From the IMG/VR virus record IMGVR_UViG_3300045988_088194: a stretch of DNA of 64,000 nt, one strand, 5' to 3'. The notes beneath the pieces are model-generated. The model did no database searches. It saw only the letters and a program-made list of their open reading frames with translations, and was not told the origin of the DNA. Positions 1,094 through 36,670 of the stretch are shown here, one piece after another. The translations under genes were made by a program, and so were the position numbers. Position 1 is the first letter of the stretch. Every line of letters begins with the position of its first letter. This DNA comes from a virus.

Positions 1094-1188
1094 AAAGGGC
1101 TATTGCTGAATAGTGGAGTTACTTCACTGATAATGAAATAAGTTTTTGGGTACTTAATTATACTCCACAAACTGTTGCATAGCCCTTT
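1094..1188 (+). ncRNA. long hairpin carrying the AGTTACTTC element (copy 1, permuted R-X-L form); possibly also the terminator of the upstream gene
   Basis: Outer stem AAAGGGCTAT/ATAGCCCTTT and inner stem GTGGAGT/ACTCCAC. ACTTC lies at 1121-1125, then a 29-nt apical segment, then TAATTAT. A T-run follows. The stems covary with the copy at 7467-7559. Confidence 0.5.
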
Positions 1189-3555: not shown

Positions 3556-4965
3556 ATGTCTAAGTTGAATCCAACCATTAAGCCAACATCTAAATTTACA
3601 GATGAAAGACTTGCTGGAGGTAGTGGTGCTCTTGCTGCTAAGCAGTCAAACATTGCTCTCCTTAAAAGACTCACCTTGGCTAATCTTCTTTGGGAAGATG
3701 CTGCCTATTGTGATGGCAAGAAGATTGCTGAAGAGATTGAAAGGCTCATACCTCTGTGTAGTGCAGAAGATGTATATACTGTTGCTTTGGCAGCAAGAAC
3801 TCTACAGAAACTCAGGCACACACCTTTGTTTCTGGCATCTGAAATGTGCAAATACCCTGAACACAGGCTATTTGTAAGAGACTTACTGCCAAAGATTATA
3901 ACAAGGGCAGATATGCTGACTGACTTCCTCTCTATATACTGGAAAGAAGAAAAGAAGCCACTGGCTAATCAGGCAAAGAAAGGACTTGCAGCAGCATTTC
4001 ATAACTTCAATGCTTATAAGTTTGCAAAGTATGACAGAGATGCTGCAATAAAACTCAGAGATGTAATGTTTCTTGTTCACCCAAGACCTTGTGATGAAAA
4101 GGAAGCAGAACTCTTCAAGATGATTGCTTCAAGAACTCTTCCTGTACCTGAAACTTGGGAAACAATGCTCTCTGCTGGTAAAGATAAAAAAGAAACCTGG
4201 ACTAAACTTATCACTGAAGATAAGATTGGAGGTTTAGCTTTCTTGAGAAATCTTAAAAACATGAGGGAAGCTGGTGTAGACAAGAAAGTAATAAAATATG
4301 GCTTTGAAAGTCTTAAGGCTTCAATGCTGTTGCCTATGAATTTCTTGCAAGCAGCCAGAATGAATCCTGAGTTTGAGAGGGATATAGAAGATGCTATGAT
4401 AACTTCATGGTCCAATCTTCCTAAAATCCCTGGTAGGACTCTGTTCATACTTGATGCTTCTGGTTCTATGGAGTGGGCTGAAATCTCAAAAAAGTCCAAA
4501 CTCACAAGGTTTGATGCTGCAAAGGCTATGGCTATGCTTGCTGCAAACCAGTGTGAAGACTTTGAGTTGGTGGTAACTGCTGGTGATGACTATGCCAGAA
4601 AGCATAAATCAGAAGTAATCAAATATCCTTCAAAGGGATTCAACCTTCTAAAGCAGATAGATGAAGCAAAGAAGAGGGTTGGAGGTGGAGGAATCTTCAC
4701 AAGACAATGTCTTGAGTGGTCAAGAGAACAGTTTACTGGAGAGTTTGACAGAATAATCATATTCTCAGACTCACAGGACTGTGACTACCCTGAGAAGAGA
4801 GTTCCAAAGCCTTTTGGAAAACACAACTACATCTGTGATGTATCATCTGAACTGCATGGTGTGAACTATAGGGGTGCTTGGGATGCTGAAATAAGTGGCT
4901 TCTCAGAGCATTTCCTAACTTTCATAGCAGCATATGAAGGTATTGAGAATACTTTTAATGAATGA
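3556..4965 (+). CDS. TROVE (Ro60/Rsr-like) domain protein with C-terminal vWA domain
   Basis: N-terminal AGGSGA...LFLASE...ITRADMLTDF...AYKFAKYDRDAAIKLRDVMFLVHPRP matches the TROVE pattern (..yqlaKY...lRDvlrl.HPkP). The C-terminus has a vWA MIDAS motif, LFILDASGSM, then VVTAGDD and IIIFSDSQD. Confidence 0.75.
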   Translation: MSKLNPTIKPTSKFTDERLAGGSGALAAKQSNIALLKRLTLANLLWEDAAYCDGKKIAEEIERLIPLCSAEDVYTVALAARTLQKLRHTPLFLASEMCKYPEHRLFVRDLLPKIITRADMLTDFLSIYWKEEKKPLANQAKKGLAAAFHNFNAYKFAKYDRDAAIKLRDVMFLVHPRPCDEKEAELFKMIASRTLPVPETWETMLSAGKDKKETWTKLITEDKIGGLAFLRNLKNMREAGVDKKVIKYGFESLKASMLLPMNFLQAARMNPEFERDIEDAMITSWSNLPKIPGRTLFILDASGSMEWAEISKKSKLTRFDAAKAMAMLAANQCEDFELVVTAGDDYARKHKSEVIKYPSKGFNLLKQIDEAKKRVGGGGIFTRQCLEWSREQFTGEFDRIIIFSDSQDCDYPEKRVPKPFGKHNYICDVSSELHGVNYRGAWDAEISGFSEHFLTFIAAYEGIENTFNE

Positions 4966-5207
4966 GACAGACAATAGGAAACATTCAGGGATATGATGTA
5001 ATCTATGTCCCTGAGAAAAGAATCCTATTCTGTAAGAACACTGCTGTTCCTTATGACCTTCTTAAGGAGGCTGTCTATGGTGACATGGACAGGTATGACA
5101 TACCTCAAAAGAATCTGGTCATAAGGAAGAGTGGTGAAATTATAGAGTTTGGATGCTTGACAACAACTATAGAAAAGGCCAAGAGCATATTGGCAAGTGT
5201 TTATTAA
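4962..5207 (+). CDS. hypothetical protein
   Basis: ORF overlapping the upstream stop by 4 nt (ATGA). No motif recognised. Confidence 0.5.
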   Translation: MRQTIGNIQGYDVIYVPEKRILFCKNTAVPYDLLKEAVYGDMDRYDIPQKNLVIRKSGEIIEFGCLTTTIEKAKSILASVY

Positions 5208-5219
5208 GAAAAAAAAACA

Positions 5220-6608
5220 ATGGAACAAACAATTATCCAGAGCACAAAGGATGTGCTTAAGAAGAAAGTAAACTTCTTTGAACAGCAACAGAAAGAGCGT
5301 ATTATCACAGCCTGTAAGTCAGACATGAAGTATGCAGAAGTTCTGGCATTCATCAAAAATGAGATAGAAATGTCTGAACAGGATGTATCACTAAACTACA
5401 ACATCAAATGTTGGAAGACTGATGGTGCATTCCAGTTTAACAAGGCTGTTGAAGAGATATTTGGCTCAGTAAAGGCTGAGAAAGATGCAGGTCCTTCAGG
5501 CTCTGGTAATATCAATACTCTTGATGTTGTCCTTGCTGATGGCTCAAGAACAAAAGTACCTTTTGGTAAGATTTCATTGCCTGAACTTGGTGAGAATTCC
5601 TATATAGAGCTGAACTACTCTAATAGTGCTTCAGAACTGGTTATAACAGGAGTATGCAAATCCAAGTATCAGTCCATGATTGATGATATTGTGGACAGGA
5701 CAAGGGAGCTCATTGCTATAAACTCTATCTACAAGAATCAAGCTCTTGAGATAACAGAGAAAGGCAAAGAGCCTAAGAGACTCAATCTCAGCCATATAGA
5801 TGGTCAGTTGATGGTCTTGTCAAAACAGACAGAGTTTGACCTTCAGCCTTTGAGGTCAAGAATCCTGTATCCTGAGAAATGTCTCAAGGCAGGCATTCCC
5901 CTTAAGTATGGATGTCTGTTTGAAGGGAAATATGGTACTGGAAAGACTCTTCTTGCATTTAAACTTGCAAGAGAGGCTACCAAGAACAACTGGACTTTCA
6001 TCTATCTTAAGAATCCTTCTCTTCTTGCAGAGACCTTGAGGATGGTGAAAATCATAGACAGGTCATGCAATGGAGTGATAGTCTTTGTAGAGGACATTGA
6101 CCAGGTTACAAGAGGGGAGAGGGATGCATCTCTTCAGGATATTCTGAACACTCTTGATGGTGGTGATACCAAAGATATGAATGTCATTACTTTGTTCACC
6201 ACCAACCACATAGAACTTATTGAACCTACATTCCTCAGAGGAAAGAGAATTGGTTCAGTGGTTACTATGGACTGTCTTGATAAGGAGACAGCATTGAGGT
6301 TCATCAAAGAGTCCTTCAAAGATGGATATGAGATTGGTGAACTTAAAGAGTCCCTTGACCTCATAGAGGAGATGGAGATAGCACCTGCATTCATGGCAGA
6401 GATAGTTGAATCTATCAAGAGTAAACTTATCTTTGCAGAGACCAACCTTGTAACTGATGATATTCTCAAAGGTGCTGTCAAGGCTTATAACAGACAGGTA
6501 AACCTCTCAAGAAAGAAGGATATGAGCATGACTCCTGAGAAGGAGTTCTACCAGAGTATGCAAACTATAATGGCTGAAGGAATCAAGCAGGTTCTTAGAG
6601 GCAAATAG
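5220..6608 (+). CDS. AAA+ ATPase (classical AAA family)
   Basis: Walker A GKYGTGKTLL, Walker B VIVFVEDIDQV, sensor-1 LFTTNH and a second region of homology, PTFLRGKRIG. Confidence 0.85.
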   Translation: MEQTIIQSTKDVLKKKVNFFEQQQKERIITACKSDMKYAEVLAFIKNEIEMSEQDVSLNYNIKCWKTDGAFQFNKAVEEIFGSVKAEKDAGPSGSGNINTLDVVLADGSRTKVPFGKISLPELGENSYIELNYSNSASELVITGVCKSKYQSMIDDIVDRTRELIAINSIYKNQALEITEKGKEPKRLNLSHIDGQLMVLSKQTEFDLQPLRSRILYPEKCLKAGIPLKYGCLFEGKYGTGKTLLAFKLAREATKNNWTFIYLKNPSLLAETLRMVKIIDRSCNGVIVFVEDIDQVTRGERDASLQDILNTLDGGDTKDMNVITLFTTNHIELIEPTFLRGKRIGSVVTMDCLDKETALRFIKESFKDGYEIGELKESLDLIEEMEIAPAFMAEIVESIKSKLIFAETNLVTDDILKGAVKAYNRQVNLSRKKDMSMTPEKEFYQSMQTIMAEGIKQVLRGK

Positions 6609-6917: not shown

Positions 6918-7002
6918 GCAGGGATGGCAGAATGGATTATGCACCAGTCTTCTAAACTGGGTTCTGAATGGAACAATGTGAGTTCGAGTCTCACTCCCTG
7001 TA
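6918..7002 (+). tRNA. type-II (long variable arm) tRNA with anticodon TCT; CCA encoded at 7003-7005
   Basis: - Acceptor: GCAGGGA/TCCCTGT (G1-U72).
- D stem: 3 bp, GCA/TGC.
- Anticodon arm: CCAGT-CTTCTAA-ACTGG.
- Variable arm: 17 nt, GTTC-TGAATG-GAAC-AAT.
- T arm: GTGAG-TTCGAGT-CTCAC.
- Discriminator: A73. Confidence 0.7.
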
Positions 7003-7069
7003 CCAAATAAATTCCTTTTTTGGGGGATGAATATGGACAGGTCTGCTGTGAAGTAAACTTGTTCATTAC

Positions 7070-7321: not shown

Positions 7322-7458
7322 GCATTACATAGTGCGGGGTAGAGTTACTTCAGATTAGATAAATGGTTATATCATAAGATTGTGGTTCTTAAATTTGTTG
7401 GTTCGAGTCCAGCATCTGGCTATAAACACTCTATCAATTATTCTTGTAATGCTTTTTT
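7322..7458 (+). ncRNA. long stem structure (permuted R-X-L element, copy 2) enclosing the tRNA-His-like module
   Basis: Outer stem GCATTAC (7322-7328) / GTAATGC (7446-7452) followed by TTTTTT. Inner stem GGTAGAGT (7338-7345) / ACTCTATC (7428-7435). ACTTC lies at 7347-7351 and TATAAAC at 7421-7427. Confidence 0.5.
7349..7421 (+). tRNA. tRNA-His-like (anticodon GTG), atypical acceptor end
   Basis: D arm GATA-AATGGTTA-TATC, anticodon arm TAAGA-TTGTGGT-TCTTA (perfect) and T arm GTTGG-TTCGAGT-CCAGC. The acceptor TTCAGAT/ATCTGGC has a T1-C72 mismatch and a T2-G71 wobble. There is no G-1/C73. Confidence 0.65.
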
Positions 7459-7466
7459 GAAATATA

Positions 7467-7559
7467 GACACTATTGTTGGTATTTAGAGTTACTTCATCC
7501 ATGATTTAAATTATTGCAAATAACTTTTAACAGAACTCTAAAGATTGTTACATAGTGTC
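7467..7559 (+). ncRNA. long hairpin carrying the AGTTACTTC element (copy 3, permuted R-X-L form)
   Basis: Outer stem GACACTAT/ATAGTGTC, a G-U-rich middle helix and a perfect 9-bp inner stem, TTTAGAGTT (7483-7491) / AACTCTAAA (7534-7542). ACTTC lies at 7492-7496, then a 31-nt apical segment, then TAACAG. Confidence 0.5.
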
Positions 7560-7571
7560 TTCAATATAAAC

Positions 7572-7696
7572 TTCCCTGTAGCTCAATTGGTAGAGCATGT
7601 ATAGAACTGTGAAGAATGTTCCCTAATTGTGGTGATGTTTACAGTTACTTCAGATTTGTAATCTCAGGGTTCTTGGTTCAAGTCCAAGCAGGGAAG
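7572..7696 (+). tRNA. tRNA-Thr (anticodon TGT) interrupted by a 52-nt intervening sequence
   Basis: Acceptor TTCCCTG/CAGGGAA, D arm GCTC-AATTGGTA-GAGC and T arm CTTGG-TTCAAGT-CCAAG. Removing 7600-7651 gives the anticodon arm TGAGA-TTTGTAA-TCTCA and a 73-nt canonical tRNA. Confidence 0.75.
7600..7651 (+). other. 52-nt intervening sequence in tRNA-Thr (between positions 28 and 29)
   Basis: TATAG-[AACTGTGAA]-24 nt-[TTTACAGTT]-ACTTC, a 9-bp hairpin. Homologous to 8810-8864. Confidence 0.65.
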
Positions 7697-7741
7697 TTTT
7701 TTAATAGAAACCTTAATACTATTATATATAATAATGGAGGA

Positions 7742-7840
7742 ATGATTATGATTCAGGTTTTTAGGGCACTGGCAGTGGCTTCTTTGGTATTAGCACTGGT
7801 GTTTATTATCTTTATATCGTCTGGCACGGATGATGATTGA
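7742..7840 (+). CDS. small hydrophobic protein (32 aa)
   Basis: Track ORF 7616..7840 trimmed to ATG 7742, which follows GGAGGA. The upstream part of the track ORF overlaps tRNA-Thr. Single TM-like segment. Confidence 0.4.
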   Translation: MIMIQVFRALAVASLVLALVFIIFISSGTDDD

Positions 7841-8377: not shown

Positions 8378-8785
8378 GGGGGTGTTTTGGTTTTGATTAC
8401 ACTCTATTTGGTAGTACCTTATGCAGTAGATGGGCAGTCTACTATAAAAGAGCCCAAAACAATTAAATGCTAACAAAGTTAGAAAATCAGTTAGAAGCCT
8501 TGTAGATTATATTAAATCTGCTATGCAGGCACCAGCAATTTCAGCTTATGCTGTTGCTGCCTAACAAAAGGCTTTAGTATTTGAGCCTTAATCAAGTACT
8601 TGGTGGAAGATGGGTGGATACCCAAATATGACTGCATGGCCTTGTAATTAGCAGAGGAAGAAGGAGTCAAGGGACGGTTTAATGGGACAGATTTCCATCT
8701 ATAGTAATAATCTGTCATCCTAAGCATATAAATAAAGGTATTATTGAAGGTTTGTAAGACACAGGTTCGAGTCCTGTCACCTCCA
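8378..8785 (+). ncRNA. ssrA: tmRNA (transfer-messenger RNA)
   Basis: - 5' end: GGGGGTGTTTTGGTTTTGA.
- 3' end: ACAGG-TTCGAGT-CCTGT-CACCTCC-A.
- Together these form a tRNA-Ala-like acceptor with G3-U70.
- CCTAAGCATATA box near the 3' domain.
- Internal tag frame: GCT ATG CAG GCA CCA GCA ATT TCA GCT TAT GCT GTT GCT GCC TAA (8520-8564), ending ..AYAVAA. Confidence 0.85.
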
Positions 8786-8794
8786 CTAATAAAT

Positions 8795-8922
8795 GGGGAA
8801 GTAGCATAATAAAAAACTCTTAAGCTTTTACTTCTGAAGAGATAGTGTTATTGAGAGTTACTTCAGGTTAATGCATTAGTTTCATAAGCTAAAGATTGTT
8901 TGTTCAAATCAAACCTTCCCCA
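8795..8922 (+). tRNA. tRNA-Met/Ile2-type (anticodon CAT) interrupted by a 55-nt intervening sequence in the D-loop; CCA encoded at 8923-8925
   Basis: Acceptor GGGGAAG/CTTCCCC, D stem GCAT (8804-8807) / ATGC (8871-8874) separated by 63 nt, anticodon arm TTAGT-TTCATAA-GCTAA and T arm GTTTG-TTCAAAT-CAAAC. Confidence 0.75.
8810..8864 (+). other. 55-nt intervening sequence in the tRNA-Met D-loop
   Basis: TAAAA-[AACTCTTAA]-27 nt-[TTGAGAGTT]-ACTTC. Removal leaves the D-loop AAAGGTTA. Boundaries were set by alignment with 7600-7651. Confidence 0.6.
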
Positions 8923-8958
8923 CCATAGAACAAGGCAGTAATAATAATAAGGGTGCTG

Positions 8959-34018: not shown

Positions 34019-34300
34019 ATGGAAACAAGAGAATATCTATTGAATCGGGGAGAAAAGGCAGAGAAAGATATGGTTAATCATCCAGACCATTATAATATCA
34101 ATGGCATGGAATGTATTGATGTTATGGAAAAACTGTTTGGTATAGATTGGACATATCATTTCTGTGTACTTAATGCTTTCAAATATCAGTTTAGGTTTAA
34201 TAATAAAGGCAAGGCTCAGGAAGATTTGAGAAAGGCTGCATGGTATAATACTAAGGCAGCAGAACTTCTTGAGAAGATGGAGGGAGAAGACAATGGCTGA
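34019..34300 (+). CDS. DUF3310-like phage protein
   Basis: HPDHYN..MECIDVMEK...LNAFKYQFR...DLRKAAWY matches the DUF3310 pattern HP.HY...E.idv...KY..R...DL.KA. Confidence 0.6.
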   Translation: METREYLLNRGEKAEKDMVNHPDHYNINGMECIDVMEKLFGIDWTYHFCVLNAFKYQFRFNNKGKAQEDLRKAAWYNTKAAELLEKMEGEDNG

Positions 34301-34982
34301 ATACCAGAAAATACAGACACTATTTCTCAGGGATGATAAGAACATTATCATTCCTGACCAGTTCACTTATCCAGAGTTTGAGTATCTTAAAGATAATAAA
34401 TGGGAGTGTACTGAGAAGATTGATGGAACCAACATTAGAATAGAACTTGACTTCTATGTCCATGATGATGGAGTAAAAGAGGTAAATGTCAATTTCAGAG
34501 GAAGAACTGATAAGGCTAATATACCTGAACATTTGTACAGAAAGCTTAAAGAACTGTTTGACAATGTTGATTGGTTTAAGATATTTGATATCACAGGTAC
34601 CACATCCATTACCCTCTATGGTGAAGGCTATGGAGCCAAGATTCAGAAAGGAGGTAACTACATAAGTTCTGATGTAGATTTTATCCTCTTTGATGTTAAA
34701 GTTGGTAAATGGTGGCTGCAAAGGGATGCTGTTGAAGATATTGCAGATGAACTCAACATCAAAGTAGTCCCTCTTATAGGATATATGACTATCCCTGAGG
34801 CAATTGAGTATGTCAAGAAAGGCTTTAAGTCTACTATTGCAGAGAATGAGGATTATGATGCTGAAGGTCTTGTTCTTAAGACTCCTACAGGACTCCTGAG
34901 AAGGAATGGAGAAAGGCTTGTAACCAAAATCAAGACAGTTGACTTCAGAAAATACAGAGATAGTCAAGTGATGAAATCATGA
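34293..34982 (+). CDS. ATP-dependent RNA ligase (nucleotidyltransferase superfamily)
   Basis: Motif I EKIDGTN, motif III TLYGEGYG, motif IV FILFDV and motif V EGLVLK...KIK. Track ORF trimmed to ATG 34293. Confidence 0.75.
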   Translation: MAEYQKIQTLFLRDDKNIIIPDQFTYPEFEYLKDNKWECTEKIDGTNIRIELDFYVHDDGVKEVNVNFRGRTDKANIPEHLYRKLKELFDNVDWFKIFDITGTTSITLYGEGYGAKIQKGGNYISSDVDFILFDVKVGKWWLQRDAVEDIADELNIKVVPLIGYMTIPEAIEYVKKGFKSTIAENEDYDAEGLVLKTPTGLLRRNGERLVTKIKTVDFRKYRDSQVMKS

Positions 34983-35167
34983 AGCAGTGGACATCAAGAG
35001 AGTTTCTAAGGATGCTTAGAAAGAATGGATATACTTACAGCAGACATAATGGGGACCATCATATCTATGTAAGTGAGGGAGGAAGGCATATATCTGTACC
35101 TCAGAAACTTGAGTGTGTCATTGCAAGAAGACTAATTAAAGAATATAATTTGAATATTGAACTATGA
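34979..35167 (+). CDS. hicA: HicA-like mRNA interferase (toxin-type RNase)
   Basis: The 62-aa sequence TSREFLRMLRKNGYTYSRHNGDHHIYV..GRHISVPQK...ARRLIKEYNL matches the HicA/YcfA pattern, including the G(S/D)HH motif. Confidence 0.7.
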   Translation: MKQWTSREFLRMLRKNGYTYSRHNGDHHIYVSEGGRHISVPQKLECVIARRLIKEYNLNIEL

Positions 35168-35406
35168 GTTTAGGAGGATACCCATTGGGAGCTGACCAGG
35201 ACCCAAGAGCTCCCTGGAAAGAAAAAGATGTCTTTGTAGATGCTACAGTAAGTATCACATATCATAAGACTATAAGGGTCAAACTTAATGAGCATTATGA
35301 TACTCCTGACCTCTACAATGCTGCACAGGATGAGGTCTATGATGATGTAAAAGCACTTTCTGACAATGGCTGGTATGAGGATGAATTTGAAGTGGTAGAA
35401 GAGTAA
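35164..35406 (+). CDS. hypothetical acidic protein (positional candidate HicA partner)
   Basis: Overlaps the hicA-like stop. No HicB motif recognised. Confidence 0.4.
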   Translation: MSLGGYPLGADQDPRAPWKEKDVFVDATVSITYHKTIRVKLNEHYDTPDLYNAAQDEVYDDVKALSDNGWYEDEFEVVEE

Positions 35407-35987
35407 TGGCAACAGTTTATTTCATATCAGATGCTCACTTTGGACATAAGAACTTGAGTGAGAGATTTAGAGGAATGTCTGTTGAAGAGTCAGATGAATT
35501 GTTAATCAGGAATTGGAATAACAAGGTAAAGAAGAAAGATGATATTGTCTATTATCTTGGTGACTTTTCAATGGATGCTCCTGAACTTCTTGAGAAGTAT
35601 CTTGACAAATTGAATGGAAAGATATACATCATAGGAGGAAACCATGATACAAGAAGAGTGTGTACCAAATTCAAAGAGTTAGGCATTACTGTACTTGGAT
35701 GTATGGAATATAAGGGCTATATGCTCACTCATATGCCTGTAGATAGAAGGATGATTAAGGAAGGTCCATTCAGAAGATATAGAGGAAACATACATGGGCA
35801 TATCCATGCTTATGAACTTGTTTCCCCAGACTATATTTCTGTGGCTGCTGACCTCAATAATCTTACTCCTATGACTTTTGAGGAGATTATTGAGAAGCAG
35901 AAGAAGAAACATCAATTGAAAGTCAAACTCAAGAACTTCCTTATGTATGTTACCTTTTTGTTTAACAAAACTTTTAAGAAGAAATGA
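35406..35987 (+). CDS. calcineurin-like metallophosphoesterase
   Basis: Motifs SDAHFGH, LGDF, GGNHD and HGHIH. Confidence 0.8.
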   Translation: MATVYFISDAHFGHKNLSERFRGMSVEESDELLIRNWNNKVKKKDDIVYYLGDFSMDAPELLEKYLDKLNGKIYIIGGNHDTRRVCTKFKELGITVLGCMEYKGYMLTHMPVDRRMIKEGPFRRYRGNIHGHIHAYELVSPDYISVAADLNNLTPMTFEEIIEKQKKKHQLKVKLKNFLMYVTFLFNKTFKKK

Positions 35988-36670
35988 GAATATTGGTTAT
36001 AGGTGACATACATGGTCACAATGGCTGGGATAAAATAGTCTTCAAGGAGGATTGGGATAAAGTAGTCTTCCTTGGAGATTATTTTGACAATTATAAGAAT
36101 ACTCCTGGAAAAGAGCAAGTTACTAACTTCAAGGAGATACTTGCAATGAAGGCTACTCACCCTGATAAGGTAGAACTTCTTTATGGAAATCATGACCATT
36201 CCTATCTTAACAAGGAGATGTGCAGTGGTTATAAATGGCAAAATCAACTTATTTATGAAGAAGTACTTAAGGGAGCTAAGGATAAAGGTTGGCTTAAACC
36301 TGTGTATATTCATGATGACATTATCTTCTCTCATGCAGGAGTGTCTTCATATTGGCTCAAAGAGGTAGCCCAATTAGCACATCCTCAGGATATTACTTGG
36401 GAGAATGTTCCTCTTGATAAGTTCAACTTCAATGGACTTACTGGATACAATTCATTTGGAGATACACCTTCACAGAGTCCTATCTGGATTAGACCTACAT
36501 CTCTTCTGCAATACCCTATTGATGGATACAGGCAGGTAGTAGGACATACTCATATGGGGGCTCCTGTGAATAGAGATGGAGTATGGTTCAATGATATGAT
36601 GCCTAAGTATTATATCATTATTGAAGATGGCAACATAGAATTTAAGGAGAATAAATATGAGATTAATTAA
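35984..36670 (+). CDS. metallophosphoesterase (lambda-phosphatase-like)
   Basis: Motifs IGDIHGH, LGDYFD, YGNHDH and VGHTH. Confidence 0.8.
   Translation: MRILVIGDIHGHNGWDKIVFKEDWDKVVFLGDYFDNYKNTPGKEQVTNFKEILAMKATHPDKVELLYGNHDHSYLNKEMCSGYKWQNQLIYEEVLKGAKDKGWLKPVYIHDDIIFSHAGVSSYWLKEVAQLAHPQDITWENVPLDKFNFNGLTGYNSFGDTPSQSPIWIRPTSLLQYPIDGYRQVVGHTHMGAPVNRDGVWFNDMMPKYYIIIEDGNIEFKENKYEIN

What the first reader, a model, noticed from the sequence alone, without database searches (positions are those of the whole stretch)
7572..7696. tRNA-Thr(UGU) gene split inside the anticodon stem by a 52-nt non-group-I intervening sequence
**What is seen**
- The acceptor, D and T arms are canonical.
- 74 nt lie between A26 and the T arm, where about 22 nt are expected.
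- Deleting exactly 7600-7651 joins ..A-TG|AGA-TTTGTAA-TCTCA.
- That restores a perfect 5-bp anticodon stem (TGAGA/TCTCA), U33, anticodon TGT, A37 and a 5-nt variable loop. The result is a 73-nt tRNA.
- No other deletion boundary gives this result.

**The insert**
- It folds as TATAG-[AACTGTGAA]-loop-[TTTACAGTT]-ACTTC, a 9-bp helix.
- It is far too short for a group I or II intron.
- It is not at the canonical 37/38 position.
- I know of no bacterial or phage tRNA intron of this kind.
Basis: seen in the sequence. Interest (0 to 1): 0.85.

Follow-up and report, generated by a model that had tools for sequence, protein, structure and literature searches.

The report
Ro60-linked RNA module splitting phage tRNA
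The 52-base insert in this gut-phage tRNA-Thr gene is real, but it is one copy of a widespread, undescribed folded RNA module that always sits beside a phage Ro60 (TROVE) gene, so the gene most likely makes a tRNA-shaped partner RNA for Ro60 rather than a tRNA with an ordinary intron.

Summary
Deleting exactly 7600-7651 is the only solution that restores a perfect 73-nt tRNA-Thr(UGU) cloverleaf (score 25.25 of 25.25; controls 0/400 at 22 or more). The "intron" reading is only partly right.

- **The insert belongs to a family.** I call it E. It has two helices (P1, P2), a bulged U, conserved internal-loop bases and a GUUACUUC tail. Covariation is strong: 94% of cells paired against 70% in shuffles, 0/500.
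- **The window holds five copies.** They are the Thr insert, an insert in the D-loop of a second missed tRNA (Met, CAU, 8795-8925), and three circularly permuted copies. One permuted copy encloses tRNA-His.
- **E is widespread.** About 60 other phage tRNA genes carry E at varied positions. Rfam 15 has no matching family.
- **E tracks Ro60/TROVE genes.** All 90 motif copies lie on the TROVE strand within 4 kb (median 360 nt). The window's own TROVE gene is 3556-4965. In Acetivibrio, E closes two YrlA-like permuted tRNA mimics directly upstream of rsr. Related phage Ro60 genes carry canonical YrlA where crAss-like phages carry E.

Best reading: a new kind of Y-RNA-like tRNA mimic. Whether E is retained or excised is undecided. 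Cultured crAss001-group phages carry the same arrangement, so this is testable.

The parts
7572..7599 (+). 5' part of the tRNA-Thr(UGU)-like domain: acceptor 5' strand, U8 A9, D arm, A26, and nt 27-28 of the anticodon stem
   Evidence: Unique optimum of the cloverleaf scorer. Conserved in 10 relatives.
7600..7651 (+). E4, the 52-nt insert. Layout: linker 7600-7604; P1 7605-7613 with 7638-7646; J12 GAAUGUU 7614-7620; P2 CCC 7621-7623 with G7629 and GG 7631-7632; bulged U 7630; UG 7633-7634; tail ACUUC 7647-7651.
   Evidence: Model R1 hit 7604-7651, 56 bits, E 1.3e-9. Covariation.
7652..7696 (+). 3' part of the tRNA-Thr-like domain: nt 29-31, anticodon loop UUUGUAA, 3' strand of the anticodon stem, variable loop, T arm, acceptor 3' strand, discriminator G. 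A run of six T follows.
3556..4965 (+). Ro60 ortholog (TROVE plus vWA), the presumed protein partner of E
   Evidence: Pfam TROVE, E 7e-14. 32% identity to Acetivibrio Ro60. PDB 9KOP/9L5Y phage Ro60, E 3e-15. 68% identity to the TROVE protein of cultured crAss001-group phages.
8795..8925 (+). Second split tRNA-like gene (Met/Ile2, CAU), missed by ARAGORN and Rfam. 5' part 8795-8810; E5 insert 8811-8864 in the D-loop; 3' part 8865-8925, ending ACCA.
   Evidence: R1 hit 8814-8864, 61.2 bits. Cloverleaf score 24.75. Conserved with compensatory changes in relatives.
7322..7452 (+). E2, a circularly permuted E enclosing tRNA-His(GUG) 7349-7421. P2 GCAUUACA 7322-7329 with UGUAAUGC 7445-7452; bulged U 7330; AG 7331-32 with CU 7443-44; P1 UAGAGU 7340-45 with ACUCUA 7428-33; tail UACUUC 7346-51.
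   Evidence: Read against the family consensus. tRNA-His.
7466..7560 (+). E3, a circularly permuted E closed by a 38-nt loop. GU 7476-77 pairs with AC 7550-51; P1 7484-90 with 7535-41.
1094..1188 (+). E1, a circularly permuted E after ORF 278-1090. P2 AAAGGGCUAU/AUAGCCCUUU; GC 1105-06 pairs with GC 1177-78; P1 GUGGAGU/ACUCCAC; tail UACUUC 1120-25.

Best explanation
The locus encodes a roughly 125-nt RNA made of a complete tRNA-Thr(UGU)-like body plus an extra arm. The arm sprouts from the 5' strand of the anticodon stem between nt 28 and 29.

**What the arm is.** It is one copy of a conserved two-helix module, E: P1, an internal loop with AAUGUU and UG, P2 with a bulged U, and a GUUACUUC tail. 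Phages and a few bacteria encode E next to, and on the same strand as, a Ro60 (TROVE) gene.

**Proposed mechanism.**
- E is the docking site for the phage Ro60 ring.
- The tRNA-like body is the effector or mimic domain, as in bacterial YrlA Y RNAs.
- The RNA therefore tethers or gates Ro60. Known phage and bacterial Ro60-Y RNA complexes recruit the host exonuclease PNPase, so this one may do the same.
- On this reading the mature RNA keeps E and is not a decoding tRNA.

**Shown here:** the gene's anatomy, the family, its structure and covariation, its three topologies, and its genomic linkage to Ro60.

**Inferred:** physical binding of E to Ro60, and retention of E in the mature RNA.
For: 1. 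**Anatomy.** The unique perfect cloverleaf appears only after removing 7600-7651.
2. **Family and structure.** In an alignment of 29 copies, 94% of cells are paired against 70% in shuffles, and 9 of 14 pairs show compensatory changes, 0/500 shuffles. Model R1 finds 110 copies in 844 kb of motif-selected loci. The CY:RG pair covaries in 21/21 permuted copies. The G-U pairs work only on the + strand, so the structure forms in RNA.
3. **Ro60 linkage.**
   - 60/95 loci fetched only by a 17-nt DNA motif carry a TROVE gene in the stretch held.
   - 90/90 motif copies are on the TROVE strand and within 4 kb, median 360 nt.
   - 0/49 E-free relatives of this phage have TROVE (E absence).
   - TROVE is the only gene family shared broadly by E loci.
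   - This is the criterion Chen et al. 2014 used to call Y RNAs (PMC4201824).
4. **Acetivibrio straminisolvens.** Two permuted E copies each close a permuted tRNA-like domain directly upstream of rsr. Rfam YrlA matches that core at 45 bits, E 6.6e-9. The break point is nt 28/29, the same as here.
5. **Niche replacement.** The nearest non-crAss phage Ro60 genes have canonical YrlA just upstream and no E. The crAss-like PhiCrAssBcn17 has E copies and no YrlA.
6. **Precedent.** Phage Ro60 is known to bind adjacent Y-like RNAs and host PNPase (PMC12135203).
7. **Features that fit a permanent arm.**
   - Linkers and junction offsets are variable.
   - No E-less allele of any E-bearing tRNA exists in about 2.9 Mb held.
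   - The first E-bearing RNA after TROVE in the cultured phage has a non-canonical 9-nt 'anticodon loop'.
Against: - No binding or transcript data exist.
- E lacks the GNCGAAN0-1G / CGAA motif of known bacterial and phage Y RNAs.
- The architecture differs from every described Y RNA: open acceptor end, intact anticodon loop, module closed by its own loop.
- In-silico removal of E gives flawless tRNAs with canonical U33 and R37 loops for many anticodons.
- Homologous D-loop-insert genes differ mainly at anticodon position 34 (UGU, CGU, GGU). This looks like selection for decoding.
- Thr(UGU) fits the phage's set of A-ending-codon tRNAs: Lys UUU, Arg UCU, Ile UAU, Leu UAA.
- No other Thr or Met tRNA is seen in the 64 kb window.
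- The phage also encodes an Rnl-type RNA ligase.
Confidence: 0.55

Rival explanations
1. E is a true intervening sequence. The precursor is cut on both sides of E by a phage or host endonuclease, possibly guided or chaperoned by Ro60. The halves stay held together by the tRNA fold and are sealed by an RNA ligase (phage Rnl 34269-34982 or host RtcB). The product is a functional 73-nt tRNA-Thr(UGU).
For: - A perfect cloverleaf is restored at a unique boundary.
- About 60 other genes restore canonical tRNAs with proper anticodon loops.
- Substitutions in relatives fall in loops or are compensatory, for example G to A turning U-G into U-A in the Met anticodon stem.
- The Thr-family anticodon varies only at position 34.
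- After excision at 28/29 the break is a nick in a duplex, the preferred substrate of Rnl2-type ligases (established knowledge). PF09414 ligase and metallophosphoesterases are present.
- In Salmonella, rsr and Y RNAs share an operon with the RtcB ligase (PMC7790460, listed).
Against: - There is no BHB motif.
- Rfam matches no ribozyme or intron family.
- Junction offset from the module ranges from -2 to +15 nt and the 5' linker is variable, so no fixed cleavage rule emerges.
- Ro60 is not a nuclease.
- There are no presence/absence alleles.
- The ligase cluster is 27 kb away and unlinked to E.
- Some family members cannot give a canonical anticodon loop.
Confidence: 0.27
2. E is a small self-cleaving ribozyme of a new class. 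Circular permutation is typical of such ribozymes. It would cut near the UACUUC tail to make tRNA 5' ends or free the 3' half.
For: - It has a compact two-helix core with conserved internal-loop bases.
- Natural circular permutants exist.
- Whole tRNAs begin exactly after ACUUC in L225/L276 (Arg) and L267 (Gln).
Against: - One ribozyme gives one cut, while an insert needs two.
- The junction is not at a fixed distance from the tail.
- No match to any Rfam ribozyme family.
- The strict Ro60 linkage is not explained by this model.
Confidence: 0.06
3. The gene is a dead tRNA disrupted by a selfish repeat (MITE-like) or by a DNA-level signal such as a promoter. The RNA has no function.
For: - The motif recurs in intergenic DNA on one strand.
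- tRNA cassettes in relatives show recombination scars, for example the truncated tRNA-Met in L013.
Against: - Both halves and the insert core are conserved while flanking spacers diverge.
- Compensatory changes and strand-specific G-U pairs show an RNA structure under selection.
- The motif is bipartite with a covarying partner, which is not how a promoter behaves.
Confidence: 0.05

Closest known systems
YrlA Y RNAs of bacteria and phages (Rfam RF02553; Chen et al. 2014, PMC4201824; Wang et al. 2018, 10.1101/312249)
   Same: - A tRNA-like domain with D and T arms joined to a stem module.
- Encoded within 4 kb of a Ro60 gene and on its strand.
- The module is attached at the anticodon stem.
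- The Acetivibrio E-flanked RNAs match the YrlA core.
   Different: - In YrlA the Ro60 stem is formed by the RNA's two ends and the acceptor stem is capped. Here the ends are at the acceptor stem and the module is capped.
- The anticodon stem-loop is kept.
- E lacks the GNCGAAN0-1G motif.
- No RF02553 hit appears in the window.
Deinococcus Yrn1 and Thermus phage phiLo Yrl1/Yrl2 with phiRo60 (PMC12135203)
   Same: - A phage-encoded Ro60 with adjacent partner RNAs.
- E2 around tRNA-His has the Yrn1-like arrangement, in which the module continues from the acceptor end.
   Different: - Those RNAs carry the CGAA motif and have no full tRNA.
- Their binding was shown experimentally. Here binding is inferred only.
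Archaeal non-canonical tRNA introns and split or permuted tRNA genes (bulge-helix-bulge system)
   Same: - Short inserts occur at many tRNA positions, including the D-loop and anticodon stem.
- The same motif is used both inside tRNAs and flanking them.
- Permuted gene versions exist.
   Different: - No BHB motif can be drawn at the junctions here (sequence inspection).
- No EndA-type endonuclease is known in these phages or their hosts.
- E is a larger conserved structure, not a junction motif.
'Enigmatic' tRNA introns of Lak megaphages (Devoto et al., 10.1101/356790)
   Same: - Gut phages of Bacteroidota with over-long tRNA genes, including Thr(UGU).
- The inserts are highly conserved and of unknown type.
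   Different: - Their sequences could not be compared because no supplement is held.
- The Lak Thr insert was described as itself tRNA-like.
Bacterial and phage group I introns in tRNA genes
   Same: They interrupt a tRNA gene in a bacterial virus.
   Different: - Group I introns are at least about 200 nt, have a P1-P9 core and sit in the anticodon loop.
- This insert is 52 nt with two helices and gets no Rfam intron hit.

Membership tests
Canonical tRNA gene | A contiguous cloverleaf detected by ARAGORN or Rfam RF00005 at gathering score | tested here: not met
   Not reported. Only a 22.3-bit misaligned hit, below the gathering score of 29.
Canonical tRNA gene | A cloverleaf with U8, G18G19, U33, R37 and a T-loop after removing one insert | tested here: met
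   Score 25.25/25.25 at the unique boundary 7599|7652.
Group I / group II intron | Size and conserved catalytic core (Rfam intron models) | tested here: not met
   The insert is 52 nt. No intron family appears at E up to 10 over 7450-7800.
Archaeal/eukaryal BHB tRNA intron | Two 3-nt bulges separated by a 4-bp helix at the exon-intron junctions | tested here: not met
   By inspection, neither GCAUG|UAUAG nor ACUUC|AGAUU can form the 4-bp central helix in either register.
Y RNA / YrlA | Encoded within 4 kb of a Ro60 (TROVE) gene on the same strand | tested here: met
   TROVE is at 3556-4965 (+) and the Thr locus at 7572-7696 (+), 2.6 kb downstream. Family-wide, 90/90 copies are on the same strand and within 4 kb.
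Y RNA / YrlA | A tRNA-like domain with conserved D and T arms | tested here: met
Y RNA / YrlA | A terminal stem formed by the 5' and 3' ends that carries the GNCGAAN0-1G (CGAA) Ro60 motif, with a capped acceptor stem | tested here: not met
   The module is internal and capped, the acceptor end is open, and the motif is absent from 7600-7651. There is no RF02553 hit.
Y RNA / YrlA | Physical association with Ro60 | not testable with these tools
   Needs EMSA or RIP-seq.
E module (defined here, model R1) | P1, an internal loop with (A)AUGUU and UG, a CY:RG pair with a bulged U, P2, and a GUUACUUC tail | tested here: met
   R1 scores 56 bits, E 1.3e-9, at 7604-7651. CC 7621-22 pairs with GG 7631-32.
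Known self-cleaving ribozyme classes (Rfam) | A match to the hammerhead, twister, twister-sister, pistol, hatchet, hairpin or HDV models | tested here: not met
   No such hit over E copies. The only twister-sister hit in L290 is at E 0.4, outside E.

The most novel reading that the evidence does not exclude
E is a removable, Ro60-recognised processing cassette. Phage Ro60 would dock on E in precursor RNAs and direct trimming or cutting on both sides of P1. An RNA ligase would then seal the nick. Phage tRNAs (Thr, Met and, through the permuted copy, His) would mature only in infected cells. That would be a protein-dependent tRNA splicing pathway in a bacterial virus, unrelated to group I or BHB systems, and a first catalytic-pathway role for Ro60 in tRNA biogenesis.
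Probability: 0.2. Interest if true: 0.95.

Novelty: new variant of a known kind. Interest (0 to 1): 0.78.

Why it matters
- **A candidate partner for an orphan protein.** Ro60 and Y RNAs are conserved from bacteria to humans, yet their bacterial and phage roles remain poorly understood. crAss-like phages are the most abundant viruses of the human gut. Their early TROVE protein has no known RNA partner (PMC8375218).
- **A concrete RNA family.** This analysis gives that protein a candidate partner RNA family that is absent from Rfam 15.
- **New architectures.** Ro60 modules can be grafted into otherwise complete tRNAs in three topologies.
- **A testable system.** Cultured Bacteroides phages of the crAss001 group carry the same arrangement.
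[quoted passage not shown] They could act as decoys or platforms in the conflict over tRNA cleavage and repair. If it is removed, this is a new tRNA splicing pathway.
- **Practical consequence.** tRNA finders miss these genes, so phage tRNA inventories and codon-usage inferences for such phages are incomplete.

Tried and rejected
1. **Promoter hypothesis** for the repeated T[AG]NTG-N9-GTTACTTC motif. Rejected: the motif has a covarying complementary partner and strand-specific G-U pairs. The sigma-70 scan was uninformative, and the crAss promoter literature gave no match.
2. **IS200/IS605 TTAC target site or integron attC-like cassette site.** The resemblance came from memory only. The core sites do not fit and the evidence points to RNA.
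3. **BHB intron.** No motif can be drawn.
4. **Known ribozyme or RNA family.** Rfam E-value scans were negative.
5. **A pseudoknot between the UACUUC tail and P2 loops (GAAG/GUAA).** It is not consistent across copies.
6. **Loose collection scan** TAGTG-N{1,12}-AGTTACTTCA. It returned mostly chance hits and wasted a scan.
7. **ARAGORN on all deletion variants**. It was too permissive, giving hundreds of solutions per locus. I replaced it with a strict scorer.
8. **Genome-collection scan**. The 72 hits roughly equal the chance expectation. Only those with R1 hits or adjacent TROVE genes are real.
9. **Search for uninterrupted alleles** in viral, metagenome and held loci. None were found.
10. 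**Thg1-like 5' repair of tRNA-His.** Considered because of its U1-C72 mismatch. No supporting gene was found and I did not pursue it.
11. **Literature searches** for phage tRNA introns or ribozymes. Only the Lak report turned up.

Full report
**1. The observation**

The window comes from a crAss-like phage. It has a 3507-aa giant protein, a tRNA cluster and a tmRNA. The TROVE protein of cultured Kehishuvirus phages is 68% identical to the window's.

At 7572-7696 the sequence has these parts:
- a 7-bp acceptor stem (7572-7578 with 7689-7695);
- U8 A9;
- a GCUC/GAGC D arm;
- A26;
- a CUUGG/CCAAG T arm with UUCAAGU.

Seventy-four nt lie where about 22 are expected. ARAGORN and Rfam at gathering score do not report the gene.

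I tested every possible single deletion with a strict cloverleaf scorer.
- There is one optimum: the 5' part ends at 7599 and the 3' part starts at 7652. It scores 25.25, the scorer's maximum. The runner-up scores 23.25.
- Replacing the upstream half with 400 random window segments never reached 22.

**2. Conservation**

Ten related contigs from IMG/VR and public metagenomes carry the same interrupted gene. No uninterrupted copy was found.
- The flanking spacers diverge strongly between two sub-groups.
- The two tRNA parts differ only at D-loop, position-26, variable-loop and T-loop positions.
- The core of the insert is invariant.
- Only the first 5-10 nt of the insert vary (UAUAG, UACAG, UGCAA, UGUAA, AUGUAAAAAG).
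- G7611 changes to A in two genomes, turning a G-U into an A-U pair.

This is not a decaying pseudogene.

**3. The insert is one member of a family**

The 3' third of the insert repeats a motif found five times on the + strand of the window. Scanning for T-arm signatures revealed a second gene that both tRNA finders miss.
- It is a tRNA-Met/Ile2(CAU)-like gene at 8795-8925.
- Its D-loop holds a 54-nt insert (8811-8864) with the same design.
- Relative to the Thr insert, its 9-bp helix carries two compensatory differences: G-C to C-G and G-U to U-G.
- Relatives add further wobble-to-Watson-Crick changes.

A collection scan for TAGTG-N6-AGAGTTACTTC returned 99 stretches against roughly 10 expected by chance. 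Most come from 100-kb phage contigs, and some from 130-480-kb phages.

Aligning 29 distinct copies gives this consensus, which I call E:
- a variable 5' linker;
- P1 (ACUCUnn, 7-9 bp);
- a joining strand n-AAUGUU;
- P2, which begins with a CY dinucleotide and is capped by a variable hairpin or a bare loop;
- a bulged U;
- RG, pairing with CY;
- UG-N4-5;
- the P1 3' strand (nnAGAGU);
- the tail UACUUC.

On that alignment 94% of pair cells are standard pairs against 70% in shuffles. Nine of 14 pairs show changes on both sides. Slid controls reach at most 51%.

The covariance model R1 scores the window's two inserts at 56 and 61 bits. It finds 110 copies at E up to 0.01 in 844 kb of motif-selected loci. 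G-U pairs that would be A-C on the other strand show that the structure forms in + strand RNA.

Rfam 15 has no family matching E.

**4. Three topologies**

- *Insert type.* The flanks leave through P1 and P2 is capped. The strict scorer shows about 60 distinct phage tRNA genes that regain a near-perfect cloverleaf (score 23-25.25) after removing 51-72 nt.
  - The commonest site is after nt 28/29, as here.
  - Other sites are the D-loop, nt 21-24, the anticodon loop and nt 40.
  - The 3' junction is usually right after ACUUC but ranges from -2 to +15 nt. When a 3' linker exists it pairs with the 5' linker.
- *Permuted, empty.* The flanks leave through P2, and P1 is closed by a loop that starts with UACUUC. 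The CY:RG pair covaries in 21 of 21 such copies: AG/CU, GU/AC, GG/CC.
- *Permuted around a tRNA.* The P1 'loop' is a whole tRNA.

The window holds all three:

| Copy | Coordinates | Topology | CY:RG pair |
|---|---|---|---|
| E1 | 1094-1188 | permuted, empty | GC/GC |
| E2 | 7322-7452 | permuted, enclosing tRNA-His 7349-7421 | CU/AG |
| E3 | 7466-7560 | permuted, empty | AC/GU |
| E4 | 7600-7651 | insert in Thr | CC/GG |
| E5 | 8811-8864 | insert in Met | CU/AG |

The 'TAGTG' just upstream of the Thr gene is simply the P2 3' strand of E3.

**5. What E goes with**

The one scan of bacterial and archaeal genomes gave about the chance number of hits. Model R1 singled out a few real ones.

In the isolate Acetivibrio straminisolvens JCM 21531, two permuted E copies each enclose a circularly permuted tRNA-like domain.
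- The domain runs from the 3' half starting at nt 29, through a capped acceptor stem, to the 5' half ending at nt 28.
- Both lie directly upstream of, and on the same strand as, a TROVE plus Ro60-vWA gene.
- Rfam's YrlA model matches the tRNA-like core at 45 bits (E 6.6e-9, positions 23-88 of 114). It falls short of the gathering score because the terminal stem is E rather than the YrlA stem.

The window's ORF 3556-4965 is itself a Ro60 ortholog.
- Pfam TROVE.
- 32% identity to the Acetivibrio protein.
- Best PDB matches are the Ro60 of Thermus phage phiLo, 9KOP and 9L5Y.

The linkage across loci is as follows.
- Of the 95 loci fetched solely through the DNA motif, 60 contain a TROVE gene in the few kb held.
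- All 90 motif copies in those loci are on the TROVE strand and within 4 kb, median 360 nt.
- Most loci without TROVE are short fragments.
- None of 49 relatives of this phage that lack E has TROVE.
- TROVE is the only protein family widely shared by E loci.
- 'Within 4 kb and same strand' is exactly how Chen et al. defined candidate Y RNAs (PMC4201824).

The next-closest phage Ro60 genes (Xanthomonas phage Tabio, Caulobacter phage CcrPW) have full-length YrlA-like matches immediately upstream and no E. In Bacteroides phage PhiCrAssBcn17 the TROVE gene is followed on the same strand by two permuted E copies and two E-bearing tRNA-like genes, with no YrlA match.

E therefore occupies, next to this Ro60 clade, the place YrlA occupies elsewhere.

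**6. Interpretation**

The best-supported reading is that E is the Ro60-docking module of a new kind of Y-like RNA. The Thr locus then encodes a tRNA-shaped RNA with that module grafted onto the anticodon stem. This is the position where YrlA joins its Ro60 stem, and the break point of the Acetivibrio permuted RNAs.

By analogy with Deinococcus, Salmonella and phage phiLo, such RNAs tether or gate Ro60 and can recruit host PNPase (PMC4201824; PMC12135203). The crAss001 TROVE gene is an early gene (PMC8375218).

Features that fit a permanent arm:
- flexible linkers;
- variable junction offsets;
- no E-less alleles;
- family members whose 'anticodon loop' is non-canonical, such as the 9-nt loop of the first E-bearing RNA in PhiCrAssBcn17.

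Binding to Ro60 and retention of E are inferences, not results.

**7. The main rival**

Excision of E to give working tRNAs remains credible.
- The restored tRNAs are flawless and have canonical anticodon loops for many amino acids.
- Related D-loop-insert genes differ chiefly at position 34 within the Thr family.
- Thr(UGU) fits the phage's set of A-ending-codon tRNAs.
- The phage encodes an Rnl-type ligase and metallophosphoesterases.

Against it:
- No cleavage rule, BHB motif or ribozyme signature could be found.
- Ro60 is not a nuclease.
- The ligase cluster is unlinked to E.

I put this at about 0.27. A new self-cleaving ribozyme gets about 0.06, and a dead gene or DNA-level signal about 0.05.

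**8. Novelty and verdict**

Phage Ro60 genes and adjacent Y-like RNAs are known: mycobacteriophages, CcrColossus, phage G and phiLo. 'Enigmatic' phage tRNA introns were noted in Lak megaphages.

New here:
- the E module itself, which is not in Rfam and lacks the CGAA motif;
- its presence in the crAss-like phages of the human gut, including cultured ones;
- the unpermuted 'tRNA plus Ro60 arm' architecture and its permuted relatives.

Its 'novel intron' interpretation is partly supported, and the thing found is arguably more interesting than a lone intron.

Noticed in passing
window 8795-8925: A second interrupted tRNA-like gene (Met/Ile2, anticodon CAU, ending ACCA in this genome) with a 54-nt E insert in the D-loop. 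ARAGORN and Rfam both miss it. It is conserved in relatives.
   Followed up: yes
window 7322-7452: tRNA-His(GUG) sits inside a circularly permuted E element. Its first three bases, UUC, are the end of the conserved UACUUC tail. That gives a U1-C72 mismatch and no G-1, so it may not be an ordinary tRNA-His.
   Followed up: partly
window 8378-8786: A phage-encoded tmRNA (Rfam 82 bits; tag peptide ANKVRKSVRSLVDYIKSAMQAPAISAYAVAA) lies between the two E-bearing tRNA-like genes.
   Followed up: no
window 6918-7005; L006 2901-2984; L027 7674-7762: Class I tRNAs with long extra variable arms: Arg(UCU) with a 17-nt variable region here, against 73 nt in L001/L002. In more distant relatives, Thr(UGU) is 84 nt and Pro(UGG) 89-90 nt.
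   Followed up: partly
L013 about 5000-5130; L015/L044 about 5625-5720: A tRNA-Met is truncated inside its anticodon stem and followed by ...TTTGTTTAT plus an odd tRNA-like gene (AGGGACG...CGTCCCT) with an over-long D region. This suggests cassette-like replacement in phage tRNA arrays.
   Followed up: no
L006 and L027, upstream of many tRNAs: In E-free relatives, tRNAs are preceded by hairpins of variable, covarying sequence with long loops, then CUGUUUAU abutting tRNA position +1. This may be a different leader or processing element.
   Followed up: no
L352 2181-2271 (Bacteroides phage PhiCrAssBcn17): A tRNA with a 22-nt insertion in the anticodon loop (Rfam tRNA 58 bits; ARAGORN calls it 'tRNA-???'). 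It is unrelated to E.
   Followed up: no
L290 5985-6340 (Acetivibrio straminisolvens JCM 21531): Two circularly permuted tRNA-like RNAs, one keeping a Lys CUUUUAA anticodon loop, are closed by E stems just upstream of rsr. The shared A strand can pair with either neighbouring B strand, giving alternative folds. WYL/WCX-type regulator genes lie upstream.
   Followed up: partly
window 34269-36670: An RNA ligase (PF09414) overlaps a HicA-toxin-like ORF and is followed by two calcineurin-like phosphoesterases. This looks like an RNA heal-and-seal cluster. It lies 27 kb from the E elements.
   Followed up: partly
window 4962-6608: An AAA+ ATPase (5220-6608) sits just downstream of the Ro60-vWA gene, an arrangement reminiscent of MoxR-vWA pairs. 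Its relatives in E-free phages lack any TROVE gene, so it is not part of the E/Ro60 association.
   Followed up: partly
L188, L189, L194, L200, L352 7676-7817: An E-bearing Lys-like tRNA family would have a 9-nt 'anticodon loop' AUGUUGAAA after E removal. In PhiCrAssBcn17 it also has a 27:43 mismatch.
   Followed up: partly
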